NCBI GenBank assembly: GCA_018692915.1 | Contig: JABHLG010000007.1 | Coordinates: 2,418-66,417, forward strand | DNA from: Candidatus Woesearchaeota archaeon | GTDB lineage: Archaea; Nanobdellota; Nanobdellia; UBA10117; JABICX01 | DNA: 64,000 bases | Direction: 5' to 3' | Program-made: the position numbers | Shown: one piece after another, positions 36,001-39,000 of the stretch | Numbering within the stretch: the first letter of the stretch is position 1 | Layout of the letters: each line of letters starts with the position of its first letter

Positions 36001-39000
36001 TTGGAGAACCGCAACTTCCGCCACAAGAACCTGCTTTAGGTGTTGGTGCTGCTTCAAGTTCTTTCTGAATGTCACCTGTATTGCTTAAATCAATATCATC
36101 TTTTACAATAAATACTCCCGGTATCATACCCATCCAACAGCTCCAAGATATAACTCCTTCTTTATCTGGAGTGAATTCAATAGTTTGTTCACCTTGTTTT
36201 ATATCAAACTCTAAACCAAACTTCGGAACTTGTATAGCATTATTACAACCATTAATTTCTTTAGCGTCAATAATCCATTTTACAGGAACATCTTTCTTTA
36301 GCACAAATTTGTCAGGTTCCCATCCATATCTATTTACTTCCATTCTAATAACTTGATAATCTCCTTCCATTGCAACAGCATTTCCAGTTATATCTGAGCC
36401 TCCTGCTGAAACCATTAATGATGTAGCATCGAATCCACTTCCTGTTAAAGCTAAACCTCTATTCATCATTACAGCTCCTAAAACAATAACAAGTAATCCT
36501 GAAGCCTTGAGAATTTTGTGTGTTGCTTTGCTAGATAAGAAACTTGTAAAGAACCCAAAACTAAGCATCACAGGTAGGGTTCCCAGTCCAAATACAAATA
36601 GTAATTTAGCACCTTCTAGAGGACTTCCTGTTCCTGCAGCCATAATATATATTGCTTGTAATGGACCACATGCAAGCATAAGACCATTTAATAATCCTAT
36701 AACTAATGGACTATTATGTTTTCGTGATTCTGTACCAACAAATTTAGATATAAATAAGGGGGTTCTTATTCTAATCTTTCGTAATCCAGGTATAATATTA
36801 AGCATATTTAGACCAAATATAATTAAAAATCCACCTGCAATTATTCCTGCAGCCCCACGCATAAATGGTGTAAATATTATTATTGAACCAAGCAGACCAA
36901 AAGCTGCTCCAATTATAGTATAAGATAGGGTTTTTCCAAGACCATACATTAGGTGAGAGCCATATGCTTTGGTACCTTCTTGAGCGTGCTTTGTAGTGTA
37001 GCTAACAACAAATCCTCCGCACATGCTAACGCAATGAAATCCGGTGAGCAACCCTACCAAGAATAGTAATCCATAACTCATATTTGCGCTTATTTCTGGC
37101 AGAGCTATGCTACCAGATAATGTATAAATATAATATCCTATAAGAACTGCTCCAATTATACCAAAAGCAAGTCCAAAAAATTTAGCAAATTTTGCATCAA
37201 TTACTAAGTGTTCTGAATCTTTTTTAGATTCTTTTGAACTCTTAATATTATTATGTGTTTCAACTAAGTCACAATCATATCCTTTTTCTTCAACAGCTTT
37301 CTTTATCTTATTAAGTGTAATTTTATCTGAATCAAAAGTAACTCTTACAGTTTCAGTCTCATAATTAGATATAGCTTCTTTAACACCATCTATACTTTTC
37401 ACAGCTCGATCAATTAGAGTTTCACAACTCTGACAATGCATTCCTTTTGCTTTGAAGTTCTTTGTAATTATCATTCTTTTGCCTCCTTAGCGAACGGAGT
37501 CGCGTATGATATAACCTTCATACACTCCTGTCCTTCTCCGCAAAAGGTTATATTATTCATCAGGTGTATAACCTTCCTCTTTAATTACTTCAATAATTTT
37601 TTCTTTAGATGTTTTCTTATTATCAAAGTCAATATATATTGCACCAGTTTCATGAGATGCTTCTGCTTTATCTACACCATTTAATTCTTCTAAAGCATCT
37701 TTTACTAACATCTCACAACTGTGACATTTCATACCTTTTGTTATGATTTTAACACTTTTCATAAATATTATTACATTGAAACAACTATTAACAACTTTGA
37801 TGAAACTAGTTTCATACGCTATTTTTAAGAATTACTGCGTTGGTCATTCCTCTTCTGCGTCTCTCGATTAATCCACGACCTTCTAGTTTATCAAGAAGTC
37901 TTGTAACTTTGACTTTTGAAATTTCTAGTTTTTCAACTAATTCGCTCTGGAAAATCATACCATCTTGTTTGACTAATTCATCAATAACTTTCCGTTCTTC
38001 TTCATTAAGATTTTCAGGAATAACTATTTTCTTTTTCTTTGGTTTGTCTTTTACAACTATAATATAACTAAGGACAAATAAAACTAATGCTGAACCAACA
38101 CCAAGATAAACTTGCCAAGGCATTTTACCTGCAGCTTCACAAACATCTCCAGTTTCACATCCACAGGTGTCTTGCCCTGCATCTTTTAGAAGAGGTATAA
38201 GTGATACAATTAGGATTAATAATATAACTGCGAATCCCGCTACAGCCAGACCAAGATGTTTATTATTCATAGCTTACACCAGCTAGATAAAACTTATAAG
38301 CCTTATGGAACTAGTTTCACAATAGAAATATTATTAACCTTTTATGTTTAATTAAAATATGGATTTAGATTATAGATTAAAATATAATGGGAATTTCTGT
38401 AGTTTTAATAATTGTAAATCTGAAGTAGTTCTTTTATTAGGTATTCAGACATCTCGAGGTAAGAGTTATTATTGTGTTCCGCATGCTAAGCAAACTATTA
38501 TGCAAGATAGGCAGATAATAAAAAGAAAAATAAATTTATTAAATAATTCTAATCCTTCGGCTCATGTAGCATGTATTGCTGTAAATGTTTATTTTTCACT
38601 TAGAAATTTACTTAAAGAAAATAATAGAATGTTGAACTTAATAAATGCTAATTTTGAAGTTTAATATAGAAATATTATTAACCTTTTACATTATTATATT
38701 ATATGGCAGATTTTCAGAAGAAAGTTGATAATTTTATGAAAGATAACAAAATGAACAATCCTATTGAATATAGGTTTTTAGATTTAATTAGTGAATTAGG
38801 TGAAGTTGCAAAAGAGATGATAAAGATGACTGATTACGGAACTAAGAAATCAAAGTTTCGCAAAGAGATTGTATCTGAATTAGGAGATGCGTTTTATTCA
38901 CTTATTGCTGTAGCAAATTATTATGATGTAGATTTAGAAGAAGCTCTTAATCTAATATTGCAGAAATATTCTAAACGAATTAAGAAGGGCGGACACTCTG

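What the first reader, a model, noticed from the sequence alone, without database searches (positions are those of the whole stretch)
37476..37546. A 71-nt structured RNA element in four copies, with compensatory stem changes, filling intercistronic gaps
Copies lie at 2463..2533, 37476..37546, 14878..14996 (expanded) and 63163..63233. All are on the minus strand and in the sense orientation of the genes. Three copies are exactly 71 nt and align position for position. Copies A and B match at 53 of 71 positions by my hand alignment. The closing stems are CUUUUGC/GCAAAAG (twice), CUUUCAC/GUGAAAG and CUCUUCG/CGAAGAG. The apical stems are AUUCGUGA/UCACGAAU, GUAUGA/UCAUAC, GUUCACGA/UCGUGAAC and GCUGAC/GUCAGC, which differ by multiple double substitutions that keep pairing. 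The unpaired blocks are conserved: RAGGAYAGGAR, the apical GAAGGUUAUAUC, and GACUCYG..CGYUA. The three intergenic copies start 2 to 6 nt after the upstream stop, contain the downstream SD, and end 1 to 3 nt before the ATG. The downstream genes are functionally unrelated (a DUF1858 protein, OTC, an HMA membrane protein). That argues against a metabolite riboswitch. It fits a generic role better, such as a processing or stability element, a translation operator, or a protein-binding site. I do not recognise the element as any known RNA family.
Basis: seen in the sequence. Interest (0 to 1): 0.8.

Follow-up and report, generated by a model that had tools for sequence, protein, structure and literature searches.

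The report
Mobile 71-nt hairpin RNA module
A previously undescribed 71-base hairpin element of a small group of DPANN (Woesearchaeota) archaea is real and strongly structure-constrained; it has been copied into transcription units (between genes, in front of a tRNA, even in frame inside a gene), so it behaves as a mobile RNA module rather than a gene-specific regulator.

Summary
The window has exactly four copies, all on the minus strand: 2463-2533, 14878-14996, 37476-37546 and 63163-63233. They match no Rfam family.

With nine further distinct copies from related Woesearchaeota contigs:
- Three helices covary strongly: 96% of cells are paired, 13 of 17 pairs show double changes, and 0 of 500 shuffles reach this.
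- The unpaired blocks are almost invariant.

- Copy D is not near a separate membrane-protein gene. It lies in frame inside a Trm5/Taw2 tRNA methyltransferase gene, and closer homologues lack it.
- The 48-nt expansion in copy C is a nested piece of another repeat family.

Evidence for copying into new sites:
- Presence or absence differs between related species at ribosomal-protein operon junctions.
- Similar subtypes sit at non-orthologous loci in different genomes.
- Copy C has an 8-nt flanking duplication, and copy D adds a net 78 nt (71+7).

Evidence for RNA-level constraint:
- All 13 copies are sense to the host transcript.
- I found no decayed copies in 238 kb.
- One copy has stayed 3 nt upstream of tRNA-Ser(UGA) in two species, with changed but still pairing stems.

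Best reading: a mobile, transcribed hairpin module with a protein-recognition core. In operons it keeps stop and start codons adjacent. Its biochemical function is inferred, not shown.

The parts
37476..37546 (-). Copy B (the focal copy), 71 nt, between an HMA-domain gene (stop codon 37553-37555) and an HMA/DsbD_2 membrane-protein gene (ATG 37472-37474)
   Evidence: Sequence; covariance-model score 90 bits; flanking genes by Pfam
37540..37546 (-). Copy B, P1 5' strand CUUUUGC. It pairs with 37476-37482 (GCAAAAG)
   Evidence: across the 13 copies, 6 of the 7 P1 pairs show changes on both sides
37526..37539 (-). Copy B, 5' internal strand GGAGAAGGACAGGA. It contains the conserved block RAGGAYAGGA; the last GGA forms P2 with UCC at 37496-37498
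   Evidence: Alignment; mean pairwise identity of the block is 0.80
37502..37525 (-). Copy B, P3 (7 bp: GUGUAUG / CAUACGC) closing the 10-nt loop AAGGUUAUAU (37509-37518)
   Evidence: Across the copies all 7 P3 pairs change on both sides. Stem identity is 0.37 against loop identity 0.92
37483..37501 (-). Copy B, 3' internal strand GACUCCGUUCGCUAAGGAG: conserved GACUCYGNNCGYUR, then a variable tail. In this copy the tail supplies the SD AGGAGG (37482-37487, reaching into the closing stem), 7 nt before the ATG
   Evidence: The SD-like tail occurs only in copies A, B and C
2463..2533 (-). Copy A, 71 nt, between a 4Fe-4S ferredoxin gene (2540-2731) and a DUF1858 gene (2217-2459)
14878..14996 (-). 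Copy C, 119 nt, between an amino-acid (carbamate) kinase gene (14999-15889) and an OTC gene (13987-14874). It is flanked by the direct repeat AAAATGAA, which holds the upstream TGA stop on one side and the downstream ATG on the other
14916..14963 (-). The 48-nt insert in the apical loop of copy C (two hairpins; boundaries are uncertain by +/-2 nt). It contains a 17-mer, ACAAATCAAAGATTTGC, that is identical to sequences in another Woesearchaeote's ribosomal-protein operon, so it is a nested piece of another repeat family
63163..63233 (-). Copy D, 71 nt, inside the Trm5/Taw2 gene. It is translated in frame as ...ALRDKDRSSRRLYRERLRSLPNEE..., and the P1 3' strand CGAAGAG encodes the acidic EE that precedes ILDMFAG
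62731..63543 (-). Host gene of copy D: a TYW2_N_2 plus TRM5-TYW2 methyltransferase, 270 aa. It carries 26 extra residues (78 nt) relative to the empty sites in homologues
   Evidence: Pfam; protein alignment; codon-level comparison with L048 and L050

Best explanation
**What it is.** The element is a lineage-restricted, transcribed 71-nt hairpin module found in a small clade of Woesearchaeota (DPANN archaea).

**Origin (inferred).** Its oldest detectable copy is the leader of the tRNA-Ser(UGA) gene. There it has its own upstream promoter and ends 3 nt before tRNA position +1.

**Spread (inferred from comparisons).** In the lineage of this window it has multiplied as a small non-coding mobile element. 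New copies arise at the DNA level, probably with a target duplication of about 7 nt.

**Where copies survive.**
- Only in the sense orientation inside transcription units.
- Mostly at stop/start junctions of tightly packed operons.
- Occasionally in frame in a surface loop of a protein; two of the element's three reading frames are open.

**How the RNA works (inferred).**
- The terminal 7-bp stem P1 closes the whole insert, so the upstream stop (2-6 nt before P1) and the downstream start (1-4 nt after P1) stay adjacent.
- In the window copies an SD has evolved in the variable tail just 5' of the P1 3' strand. P1 therefore masks the SD-to-AUG spacer until a ribosome finishing the upstream gene melts it. 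This would give translational coupling.
- The invariant internal-loop blocks (RAGGAYAGGA opposite GACUCYGNNCGYURC, with possible tandem G.A pairs) and the GGUUA-containing loop are most likely a recognition platform for a protein that binds the folded strand.

**Status of the steps.** Shown: the anatomy, covariation, distribution, insertion polymorphism, and orthology of the tRNA-Ser copy. Inferred: the transposition mechanism, the coupling role and the protein partner.
For: **Structure.**
- 96.3% of cells are paired, 13 of 17 pairs have double changes, and 0 of 500 shuffles reach this. Slid controls give 38-45% paired.
- RNAalifold finds the same helices independently.
- P3 identity is 0.37, against 0.92 for the loop and 0.80/0.84 for the internal strands.
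- Each copy folds better than shuffles, z -3.0 to -4.8.

**RNA-level or host-level constraint.**
- All 13 distinct copies are sense to the host transcript.
- Covariance-model scores over 238 kb are bimodal, >=59 or <=16 bits, so there are no decayed copies.
- The tRNA-Ser copy is orthologous in two species. They share the promoter CGAATAAYTTATAAAT and have S13 proteins 69% identical. P1 and P3 differ but still pair, the blocks are invariant, and the flanks cannot be aligned.
- Each of those two GTDB genomes has only one pattern match.
- In copy D, three P1 pairs changed together while the 3' strand came to encode the conserved EE.

**Mobility.**
- Copies at L18-S5 and L15-SecY occur in one species (L042, L053-55). 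They are absent from relatives with S5 77-83% identical, where the genes overlap or are 10-16 nt apart.
- The Trm5/Taw2 copy is present in the window and in a 70%-identical homologue (L047), but absent from homologues of 79-84% identity.
- Subtypes are shared across genomes at different loci: D with L040, A with L042a, C with L012, L044 with L042b, L043 with L047.
- Copy C has an 8-nt flanking repeat.
- Copy D shows a net gain of 78 nt = 71+7.
- A different small insert in the same clade is polymorphic between strains and is flanked by a 7-nt repeat, AATGGCA, that includes the start codon.

**Context for coupling.**
- The genome is dominated by leaderless genes: a TATA-like hexamer lies at -34..-24 in 26 of 56 ATG genes.
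- Operon genes elsewhere overlap stop and start.
- SD-like tails occur only in the three intercistronic window copies.
Against: - No transposase, integrase or reverse transcriptase was seen among 29 window ORFs scanned. No cognate autonomous element is known.
- Flanking duplications are not significant across copies (p=0.27). Only copy C is clear.
- Strict sense orientation and invariant loops with free-running stems are atypical of MITEs.
- The conserved single-copy tRNA-Ser leader implies a host function that this explanation does not name.
- The coupling role cannot apply to the tRNA, coding-sequence and 5'-UTR copies.
- Non-window copies have no SD.
- There are no expression data.
- Only 13 distinct copies are known, and the covariance alignment was fitted to the model.
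Confidence: 0.45

Rival explanations
1. RNA punctuation or processing element. The folded element is a substrate for an endonuclease, or is itself a new small self-cleaving ribozyme. It is cut at or near its borders. That would release downstream RNAs whose 5' end is within a few nt of the AUG, which would be translatable as leaderless mRNAs, or within 3 nt of tRNA +1.
For: - Nine of 11 mRNA-linked copies end 1-4 nt before the start codon, and the modal spacing of 3 nt equals the spacing to tRNA-Ser +1.
- The host genome is largely leaderless.
- Copies in other genomes lack any SD.
- Invariant junction nucleotides with variable stems, multiple copies and unrelated neighbouring genes are the usual signature of small ribozymes.
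- The conserved tRNA-leader copy suggests a role in RNA maturation.
Against: - The three intercistronic window copies have evolved SDs inside the element tail. This implies the element stays attached to the translated mRNA.
- Two copies sit in frame inside an intact Trm5/Taw2 gene, where cleavage would destroy the message.
- Spacing varies from 1 to 4 nt and is 24 nt in L043, so a fixed ruler cut would remove the AUG in copy B.
- There is no match to any known ribozyme family.
- An RNase P protein subunit is encoded in the clade, so the tRNA needs no alternative 5' maturation.
Confidence: 0.2
2. Trans-acting small RNA gene family. The 71-nt hairpin is a small RNA that forms an RNP through its conserved loops. 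It was originally co-transcribed with tRNA-Ser, so that RNase P makes its 3' end. It was later duplicated into highly expressed host transcripts, from which it is excised, as happens with archaeal C/D box sRNA genes.
For: - The tRNA-Ser copy has a dedicated promoter and is conserved as a single copy in two species.
- Host operons are highly expressed: the ribosomal-protein spc operon, and the junction between a large ORF and a probable L30e gene.
- All copies are sense-oriented.
- Archaeal C/D sRNA genes show the same habits: sense overlap with ORF 5' ends, co-transcription with tRNAs, and MITE-like proliferation (PMC6009581).
- A tandem G.A (K-turn-like) arrangement is possible at the P2/P3 junction, and the L027 stem carries a second GA/GA.
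Against: - All copies carry the same loops, so extra copies add dosage only.
- It has no C/D or H/ACA boxes.
- The apical loop is lost, altered or interrupted in 3 of 13 copies.
- Tight abutment to start codons is not needed for an excised sRNA.
- No target complementarity was identified.
Confidence: 0.15
3. Purely selfish DNA palindrome (a MITE- or REP-like element) with no RNA role. The stems stay perfect through template-switch correction of quasi-palindromes. The loops are conserved because a transposase or recombinase reads them on folded single-stranded DNA.
For: - Terminal inverted repeats, small size, multiple copies, presence/absence polymorphism, nested insertion in copy C, the flanking repeat at copy C, and an in-frame insertion in a gene as with Rickettsia palindromic elements.
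- G.U and A.C mismatches are equally frequent, 3 against 3. There is therefore no strand asymmetry that would prove an RNA fold.
Against: - 13 of 13 copies are sense to transcription.
- An orthologous single-copy tRNA-Ser leader has been maintained, with compensatory changes, across species with S13 69% identical.
- There are no decayed copies in 238 kb.
- Within-genome copies are only about 70-75% identical, so there has been no recent burst.
- No transposase was found.
Confidence: 0.12
4. Internal archaeal promoter. The loop AAGGTTATAT would be a BRE/TATA element driving the downstream gene, with transcription starting about 22 nt later, just after the conserved CGYTAC.
For: - The loop resembles local promoters (AAGGcTTATAAG, AAGGcTTTTAAA).
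- The distance from TTATAT to the Y|R step after CGYTAC is about 21-22 nt in all copies.
Against: - The TATA-like loop is replaced by GCGGUUAGCC in L042b and by a tetraloop in L047, while everything else is kept.
- L012, L027 and L043 have canonical promoters upstream of P1.
- The box sits at -42 from the ATG, whereas the genome's boxes peak at -30.
- P1 pairs sequence on either side of the supposed start site and covaries.
Confidence: 0.04
5. Riboswitch or physical sensor (for an ion, temperature or a global metabolite) that controls the downstream translation start through P1.
For: - Compact hairpin with invariant internal loops and variable stems.
- The P1 3' strand lies between the SD and the AUG in copies A-C.
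- Several neighbouring genes are growth-related: a tRNA, ribosomal proteins, SecY and a gene whose product looks like a DnaG-type primase.
Against: - The element is gained and lost between close relatives at essential operon junctions.
- It occurs in frame in a coding sequence and in front of a tRNA.
- There is no consistent gene set.
- It matches no known riboswitch class.
Confidence: 0.04

Closest known systems
Rickettsia palindromic elements (RPE), from my own knowledge of Ogata et al. 2000; a MITE review that mentions them appeared in a library search (PMC10969869; not read)
   Same: Both are short palindromic repeats that fold as hairpins. Both are scattered in a reduced genome and occur in intergenic regions and next to RNA genes. 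Both can be inserted in frame into protein-coding genes and translated as a hydrophilic surface peptide.
   Different: There is no sequence relation, and this element is in archaea rather than alpha-proteobacteria. It is much shorter (71 nt against about 100-150). It has invariant loops with freely varying stems, strict sense orientation, tight placement at start codons, and one conserved orthologous copy in a tRNA leader.
Archaeal C/D box sRNA genes, including the MITE-like sRNA element of Pyrobaculum calidifontis (PMC6009581)
   Same: Both are small structured RNA genes that are duplicated and mobilised. They often lie in sense at or overlapping the 5' or 3' ends of ORFs and are co-transcribed with them. 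They are sometimes co-transcribed with tRNAs, and their terminal stems are flanked by inverted repeats.
   Different: This element has no C (RUGAUGA) or D (CUGA) boxes next to the terminal stem and no variable guide regions. Here the loops are constant and the stems vary, which is the opposite pattern. It is 71 nt and forms one long hairpin.
Bacterial transcribed intergenic repeats (ERIC/IRU, Correia/CREE, REP/BIME, BOX) (my own knowledge)
   Same: They are imperfect palindromes inside operons. They are co-transcribed, can change mRNA stability or translation of neighbouring genes, and show presence/absence polymorphism between strains.
   Different: Those families occur in both orientations. 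They show uniform sequence conservation rather than loop-only conservation. Several have known partners (RAYT, IHF, RNase III). None is known in archaea or abuts start codons so precisely.
Translational coupling by masking of the initiation region, as in MS2 coat/replicase and ribosomal-protein operons (my own knowledge)
   Same: A helix that involves the region just upstream of the downstream start lies within reach of a ribosome terminating at the upstream stop. Upstream translation would therefore open the downstream start.
   Different: In those cases the helix is gene-specific. Here it is supplied by a portable 71-nt cassette with conserved internal loops that the coupling itself does not need.
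tRNA punctuation of mitochondrial polycistronic transcripts, and tRNA-like t-elements (my own knowledge)
   Same: Both are structured units of about 71 nt closed by a 7-bp terminal stem and followed by an A. They fill the gaps between cistrons and sit 3 nt from a true tRNA.
   Different: This element has no cloverleaf. The Rfam tRNA model and ARAGORN do not recognise it. There is no evidence of RNase P or RNase Z cleavage.

Membership tests
Any Rfam 15 family | Score at or above a family's gathering threshold | tested here: not met
   The whole window at gathering thresholds gives only an intron-bearing tRNA at 53029-53200. Copy B with its flanks at E<=10 gives only chance snoRNA and miRNA hits far below threshold. 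Related loci give only tRNAs.
tRNA / tRNA-like structure | Cloverleaf with D, anticodon and T arms inside a 7-bp acceptor stem | tested here: not met
   The 7-bp terminal stem, the 71-nt length and the 3' A are present. However, the interior is a single irregular hairpin. A T-arm-like pairing exists only in copies that carry an SD. The RF00005 model gives no hit at E<=10 and ARAGORN finds nothing in the window.
C/D box sRNA | C box RUGAUGA and D box CUGA adjacent to the terminal stem (K-turn), plus internal D'/C' boxes and variable guides | tested here: not met
   The best C-like string is AUGAGGA or AUAAGGA (5-6 of 7). No CUGA lies before the P1 3' strand, there are no C'/D' boxes, and the unpaired regions are constant rather than variable.
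H/ACA sRNA | ACA box 3' of the lower stem, 14-16 nt from the top of the pseudouridylation pocket, with variable guide strands | tested here: not met
   The 3' trinucleotide is AAA, AAU, AUA, AAC or AAG. The distance from the upper stem to it is 20 nt. The pocket strands are invariant among copies.
K-turn (L7Ae-type protein site) | C stem, 3-nt bulge, tandem sheared G.A/A.G, NC stem | tested here: inconclusive
   The 5' strand GGA-YAG-GA-R fits the pattern. The 3' strand Y-GA-C-UCY has one extra C between the A and the C stem. An alternative continuous helix (G-C, G.A, A.G, R-Y) is equally possible. Covariation cannot separate the two registers, because both GGA triplets are invariant.
Archaeal bulge-helix-bulge (BHB) intron | A 3-nt bulge, a 4-bp helix and a 3-nt bulge at the exon-intron borders, with removal restoring the host RNA | tested here: not met
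   P1 at the borders is an unbroken 7-bp helix. The internal ACA/GGAG:CUCC/CGA arrangement lacks the outer helix, and cutting there would excise 29 nt and shift the frame. In copy D the unspliced reading supplies the conserved EE before ILDMFAG, and both coding-sequence copies are in frame and open.
MITE (non-autonomous DNA transposon) | Terminal inverted repeats | tested here: met
   A 7-bp inverted repeat is present at the ends (consensus CTTTTGC...GCAAAAG). However, it varies between copies with compensating changes, which is unusual for a transposase-binding TIR.
MITE (non-autonomous DNA transposon) | Target-site duplication flanking each copy | tested here: inconclusive
   Copy C has AAAATGAA on both sides. 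Copy D has a net gain of 71+7 nt. The other copies show 3-6 of 7 matches, and same-copy flanks are no more alike than cross-copy flanks (p=0.27).
MITE (non-autonomous DNA transposon) | Insertion polymorphism, and multiple copies at non-orthologous sites | tested here: met
   presence or absence at the L18-S5, L15-SecY and Trm5/Taw2 sites; shared subtypes at different loci.
MITE (non-autonomous DNA transposon) | A cognate autonomous element or transposase with the same ends; insertion in either orientation | tested here: not met
   No transposase-like domain was found in 29 window ORFs. No half-sites or longer elements were found by the covariance model. All 13 copies are sense. Only about 300 kb of the clade was available, so absence of a transposase is weak evidence.
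Integron attC site | R''/L''...L'/R' boxes with a 3' core GTTRRRY, arrays of promoterless cassettes, and an integron integrase | tested here: not met
   The ends are CTTTTGC/GCAAAAG, the centre is conserved rather than variable, and the neighbours are core housekeeping operons.
Riboswitch | A conserved aptamer upstream of a coherent set of genes, inherited vertically | tested here: not met
   The loop architecture looks aptamer-like. The neighbours, however, are unrelated: DUF1858, OTC, a DsbD-like protein, S5, SecY, a probable L30e, a probable primase, tRNA-Ser and a site inside a coding sequence. The element also comes and goes between close relatives.
Known self-cleaving ribozymes (hammerhead, twister, twister-sister, pistol, hatchet, HDV-like, hairpin) | A match to the family covariance model or catalytic core | tested here: not met
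   There are no Rfam hits even at E<=10. Whether the element is a new ribozyme class cannot be tested with these tools.

The most novel reading that the evidence does not exclude
The element could be a new class of RNA 'punctuation' signal. It would be either a small self-cleaving ribozyme or the dedicated substrate of an unknown endonuclease. It would cut polycistronic transcripts just upstream of start codons, and upstream of tRNA-Ser. In an archaeon whose translation is mainly leaderless, that would turn internal cistrons into leaderless mRNAs. Because the signal is portable, it could spread from operon to operon.
Probability: 0.12. Interest if true: 0.9.

Novelty: new variant of a known kind. 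Interest (0 to 1): 0.62.

Why it matters
- DPANN archaea have tiny, tightly packed genomes, and little is known about their RNA biology or their mobile DNA.
- This element is a clean, strongly covarying RNA fold that no database knows.
- It shows that even essential operons of a reduced genome accept a portable 71-nt cassette. Examples are the ribosomal-protein spc operon and the junction of a large ORF with a probable L30e gene. Acceptance depends on the insert being sense-oriented and closed on itself between the stop and start codons.
- It is an archaeal counterpart of the Rickettsia palindromic elements, including in-frame insertion into a tRNA-modification enzyme.
- Unlike those elements, its conservation pattern (constant loops, free stems) and its conserved tRNA-leader copy point to a specific molecular partner.
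- Finding that partner would reveal either a new transposition route or a new RNA-processing or translation-coupling device in archaea.
- Practically, the covariance model can be used to annotate these insertions. They currently cause gene callers to extend or invent ORFs, for example the 51-aa 'protein' P0121 and the 256-aa S5 call.

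Tried and rejected
**Database and model searches**
- Rfam at gathering thresholds and at E<=10 gave nothing.
- A viral-contig scan gave only two chance matches, both rejected by the covariance model.
- The GTDB genome scan returned 39 stretches, about the number I estimated by hand for chance matches. Only the two Woesearchaeota hits have the 38-nt geometry and the full element.
- A profile of the element translated in its two open frames was searched against 5.8 billion proteins, to find other in-frame insertions. It returned one hit, a spurious 51-aa ORF over the L027-type tRNA-Ser leader. Translated copies are therefore rare.

**Structural classes considered and rejected**
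- tRNA-like cloverleaf: the T-arm-like pairing exists only where an SD is present.
- C/D and H/ACA sRNA: the boxes are absent.
- BHB intron: the borders are an unbroken helix, and the coding-sequence copies are translated.
- attC site: the core sequence is wrong.

**Promoter reading.** It looked attractive because the loop resembles the local BRE/TATA and the spacing to a Y|R step fits. I rejected it as the conserved function for three reasons: two copies lack the TATA, three copies have their own upstream promoters, and P1 spans the supposed start site.

**Tests that were uninformative or negative**
- Pseudoknot between the loop and upstream UAUAACCUU: present only in copy B.
- Loop to 5'-strand AUAA pairing: no covariation, and the loop is absent in L047.
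- Flank-duplication permutation test: not significant.
- G.U versus A.C asymmetry, as a test of RNA against double-stranded DNA: 3 against 3, uninformative.
- Search for decayed or half copies with two covariance models over 238 kb: none found.
- Pfam scan of 29 window ORFs for a transposase, integrase or reverse transcriptase: none found.

**Data I could not obtain.** Two contig look-ups returned no DNA because the sample file was too large.

Full report
**1. The observation**

Reading the minus strand at the four stated places shows the same element each time.
- Closing stem P1: CUUUUGC/GCAAAAG, or CUUUCAC/GUGAAAG, or CUCUUCG/CGAAGAG.
- Conserved 5' strand: ..RAGGAYAGGA.
- Apical hairpin whose stem differs completely between copies, closing the constant loop AAGGUUAUAU.
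- Conserved 3' strand: GACUCYGNNCGYUR. followed by 4-5 variable bases.

Further checks:
- A, B and D are exactly 71 nt. C is 119 nt because of 48 extra bases in the loop.
- A short two-block pattern finds the four copies, with 0.00 expected by chance.
- A covariance model scored at every position of the window finds these four at 75-94 bits and nothing else above 13 bits.
- Each copy folds better than its shuffles, z = -3.0 to -4.8.
- No Rfam family matches, even at E<=10.

**2. What organism, and how its genes start**

- The only Rfam hit is a tRNA with two long insertions.
- The nearest proteins are from Candidatus Woesearchaeota.
- The only genomes in the GTDB set that carry the element are two Woesearchaeota MAGs.
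- The window has 32% G+C.
- In 26 of 56 ATG-start genes a TATA-like hexamer begins 24-34 nt before the ATG, with a sharp peak at -30. Only 8 of 56 have an SD-like string.
- I infer from this that most mRNAs here are leaderless.
- Operon genes usually overlap stop and start.

**3. More copies**

Collection scans and contig look-ups gave nine further distinct copies. With them:
- The three-helix model has 96.3% of cells paired.
- 13 of 17 pairs change on both sides, and 0 of 500 column shuffles reach this. Sliding the partner by 1-3 columns drops pairing to 38-45%.
- RNAalifold predicts the same helices on its own. It adds a UAA/UUA triplet and one G-C pair inside the internal loop.
- Mean pairwise identity is 0.37 in the six variable pairs of the apical stem, 0.92 in the loop, and 0.80 and 0.84 in the two internal strands.

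The conservation pattern is therefore constant loops with free stems.

Caveats: there are only 13 sequences, the alignment was fitted to the model, and related sequences can beat shuffles without structure. The slid controls and the perfect, unrelated stems make the pairing hard to doubt.

The apical loop is not essential to the rest of the element:
- It is GCGGUUAGCC in L042b. The change A2-U8 to C2-G8 suggests a GGUUA pentaloop.
- It is a bare tetraloop in L047.
- It is split by 48 nt in copy C.

**4. Where the copies sit**

All 13 are in the sense orientation of the surrounding transcription unit.

| Context | Copies |
|---|---|
| Intercistronic | ferredoxin to DUF1858 (A); HMA to HMA/DsbD_2 (B); carbamate kinase to OTC (C); L18 to S5 and L15 to SecY (L042, L053-55); a 416-aa ORF to a probable L30e (L040); an ORF to a probable DnaG-type primase (L044) |
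| After a tRNA | tRNA-Val to a hydrolase-like gene (L046) |
| 5' UTR | L043: own promoter upstream, start codon 24 nt downstream |
| tRNA leader | L012 and L027: 3 nt before tRNA-Ser(UGA) |
| Inside a coding sequence | D and L047 |

(Gene contexts. The L30e and primase names rest on my reading of the translated sequences; Pfam was not run on those two products.)

Nine of the 11 mRNA-linked copies end 1-4 nt before the start codon. The upstream stop ends 2-6 nt before P1.

**5. Copy D is inside a gene**

- ORF 62731-63543 is a Trm5/Taw2 (TYW2) methyltransferase.
- The element is translated in frame as part of AERKYALRDKDRSSRRLYRERLRSLPNEE, directly before the SAM motif ILDMFAG.
- Ten close homologues of 56-84% identity lack the insert. 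One 70%-identical homologue (P0004, locus L047) has a 62-nt version a few nucleotides away, also in frame.
- Against the empty sites of L048 and L050 the window gene has a net gain of 78 nt, which is 71+7.
- The P1 3' strand CGAAGAG encodes the two acidic residues that homologues have before (V/I)LD. The 5' strand has changed at three pairs to keep pairing.
- This shows that the element is translated rather than spliced out, and that P1 pairing is kept even inside a coding region.

**6. Evidence that copies are gained**

- The S5 and SecY junction copies exist in one species, seen as three assemblies with identical elements. They are absent from relatives with S5 77-83% identical. There L18 and S5 overlap or abut (85 nt apart in L057, with no element), and L15 and SecY are 10-16 nt apart.
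- About 40 kb around the Trm5/Taw2 gene in two relatives has no copy.
- Stem subtypes are shared between genomes at different loci. Copy D in Trm5/Taw2 and the L040 copy before the probable L30e gene have the same apical stem and nearly the same interior. The same holds for A with L042a, C with L012, L044 with L042b, and L043 with L047.
- Copy C is flanked by AAAATGAA on both sides. The left copy holds the TGA stop of the kinase gene and the right copy holds the ATG of OTC. This is what a target duplication at an overlapping ATGA junction would leave.
- Over all copies, however, same-copy flanks are no more alike than cross-copy flanks (p=0.27). The duplication is therefore shown only for C and suggested by the 71+7 arithmetic for D.
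- In the same clade another small insert (58 nt) is present in one assembly and absent from two others of the same species. It is flanked by the 7-nt repeat AATGGCA, which includes the start codon.
- Its first 17 bases are identical to part of the 48-nt insert of copy C. Copy C therefore carries a nested piece of a different repeat family.

**7. Evidence that the RNA (or at least the sense strand) is under selection in place**

- Orientation is 13 of 13 sense.
- Two covariance models over 238 kb give only intact copies (>=59 bits) or noise (<=16 bits), with no relics.
- Most telling is the tRNA-Ser copy, which is orthologous in two species.
  - The promoter CGAATAAYTTATAAAT, the element, the 3-nt spacer and the tRNA align.
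  - The rest of the leader and the trailer do not align.
  - The neighbouring S13 proteins are 69% identical.
  - Between the two species P1 (UCUUUGC/GCAAAGA against CUUUUCGU/ACGAAAAG) and the apical stem (CUGACC/GGUCAG against a GCAG/CUGC stem with tandem G.A) have changed but still pair. The unpaired blocks are unchanged.
  - Each of those genomes has a single pattern match.

  This is conservation of a single-copy element, which spread of a selfish repeat cannot explain.
- The count of G.U against A.C mismatches is 3 against 3. It does not decide between RNA and folded DNA.

**8. How it most likely works**

*Shown:*
- a closed hairpin cassette with a constant internal-loop core;
- transcribed position (canonical promoters lie upstream of P1 in L012, L027 and L043);
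- gain and loss between relatives;
- survival only in sense.

*Inferred:*
- Copies are made at the DNA level with a short target duplication.
- They persist where they do no harm. P1 closes the insert, so stop and start codons stay a few nucleotides apart.
- In a genome that relies on leaderless starts and stop/start overlap, this is the one place an insert can be tolerated inside an operon.
- In the three intercistronic window copies the variable tail has become an SD: AGAGG, AGGAGG and GGGGUGA, 7-10 nt before the ATG. The P1 3' strand forms the spacer.
- P1 would therefore hide the initiation region until the ribosome finishing the upstream gene melts it. Its stop is 2-6 nt from P1.
- Copy D, the tRNA copies and the copies in other genomes have no SD in that tail. 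This fits local adaptation of the tail to the needs of the downstream gene.
- The constant loops need a reader. The most economical guess is a protein that recognises the folded strand, either the machinery that copies the element or a host RNA-binding protein.
- A K-turn-like reading of GGA-YAG-GA / GA-C-UCY is possible but not proven.
- The conserved tRNA-Ser leader copy says the host uses it for something. An sRNA matured by RNase P cleavage of the adjacent tRNA is the natural analogy.

**9. Rivals**

- *Processing or punctuation element, possibly a new ribozyme.* It fits the 3-nt spacing to both AUG and tRNA +1 and the leaderless biology. It conflicts with the SDs inside the element, the intact in-frame coding-sequence copies and the variable spacing.
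- *Trans-acting sRNA family.* It fits the tRNA-linked ancestral gene and the analogy with archaeal C/D sRNA genes, which overlap ORF 5' ends in sense, are co-transcribed with tRNAs and include a MITE-like form (PMC6009581). It does not explain why copies abut start codons.
- *Purely selfish DNA palindrome.* It explains the gains but not the orientation, the conserved single-copy locus or the lack of relics.
- *Promoter in the loop.* Excluded as the conserved function (see section 3, and for the -42 against -30 position).
- *Riboswitch.* Unlikely given the gene contexts and the turnover.

**10. Comparison with what is known**

- In behaviour the element is closest to Rickettsia palindromic elements and to mobile archaeal sRNA genes.
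- In possible cis effect it resembles masking-type translational coupling.
- It fails the defining tests for tRNA-like elements, C/D and H/ACA sRNAs, BHB introns, attC sites and all Rfam ribozymes and riboswitches.
- As a MITE it meets the tests for inverted ends and insertion polymorphism. It does not meet the tests for orientation neutrality or a known transposase, and target duplication is unresolved.

**11. Verdict**

- The feature is real and is a new RNA/repeat family confined, as far as public data show, to a few Woesearchaeota.
- I rate it a new variant of a known kind (structured mobile repeats and mobile small-RNA genes), with interest 0.62.
- The most novel reading still open is a portable punctuation signal or ribozyme that makes leaderless mRNAs. 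I give it a probability of about 0.12.

Noticed in passing
L053:4793-4874 and L053:8881-8963 (also L053:1706-1783): A second intercistronic repeat family occurs in the same ribosomal-protein operon, at S17 to L14 and at L32e to L19e. The sequence is GGAGGYAACCAATAAG-WTTTGCGAAGCAG-hairpin-YGTTTCTTTGCGAAC-TTTCTTGGAAGAAAG-CTCA|ATG. The hairpin covaries (TCATTTC/GAAATGA against TTGTTTC/GAAACAA). The repeat includes the last codons and stop of the upstream gene and ends 4 nt before the ATG. The L2 to S19 gap shares its 5' part.
   Followed up: partly
L053:9424-9481 compared with L054:9480 and L055:5162: A 58-nt insertion between L19e and L18 is present in one assembly and absent from two others of the same species. 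It is flanked by the 7-nt direct repeat AATGGCA (start codon included) and carries its own SD inside a hairpin loop. Its 17-mer ACAAATCAAAGATTTGC also occurs at the start of the L5 gene (L053:6409) and in the insert of window copy C.
   Followed up: partly
window 53029-53200 (-): A tRNA gene has two long insertions, 40 nt in the D region and 65 nt after the anticodon (GAU by my reading). The anticodon-loop intron shares AGAAUCCCU-hairpin-GGUCUUCCAACCCCA with the intron of the tRNA-Ser gene of another species (L027/L052), and the hairpin covaries. This suggests a shared and possibly mobile tRNA-intron family.
   Followed up: no
window 39914-41050 (-): The aIF2-gamma gene looks interrupted. The ORF with the eIF2_C and GTP_EFTU domains starts at 40855. 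The in-frame upstream sequence already encodes the G1 motif VDHGKTTL and runs into a stop codon only five codons before that motif. The normal N-terminus and start codon are therefore missing or in another frame.
   Followed up: no
L057:18590-18713 and L058:16410-16527: A conserved leader of about 110 nt lies upstream of the S13 operon in two species: promoter AACCTTTAAAAAC, then ..GACCCAAAACCTTGAGGGGGAG..CAGTTACAACA..GATCCTTTGAGCTAA.. It may be an uncharacterised ribosomal-protein leader.
   Followed up: no
P0001 (Trm5/Taw2 homologue, JGI), alignment A3 columns 222-239: This homologue lacks the 71-nt element but has a different 18-residue insertion (ISCKRNNASKSQSDLCS) in another loop. The same gene may have been hit by another small insert.
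   Followed up: no
window, upstream of 26 of 56 ATG genes: TATA-like hexamers peak sharply at -30 from the ATG, often preceded by AAGG or an A-rich BRE. Leaderless transcription is therefore the rule in this genome, and SD-like strings are rare (8 of 56).
   Followed up: yes
L057:18352-18359 and 18449-18456 (equivalent to L012 4504-4511): The last 8 nt of the tRNA-Ser 5' leader (AAAGAAAU, overlapping the P1 3' strand) are complementary to the 3' trailer AUUUCUUU just after the tRNA. A leader-trailer helix could therefore compete with P1. This is not conserved in the L027-type species.
   Followed up: partly
P0121 (L052:1989-2144); P0122 (S5 called as 256 aa): Public gene calls are distorted by the element. 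A spurious 51-aa ORF runs through the element into tRNA-Ser, and the S5 gene is extended 16 codons upstream into the element.
   Followed up: yes
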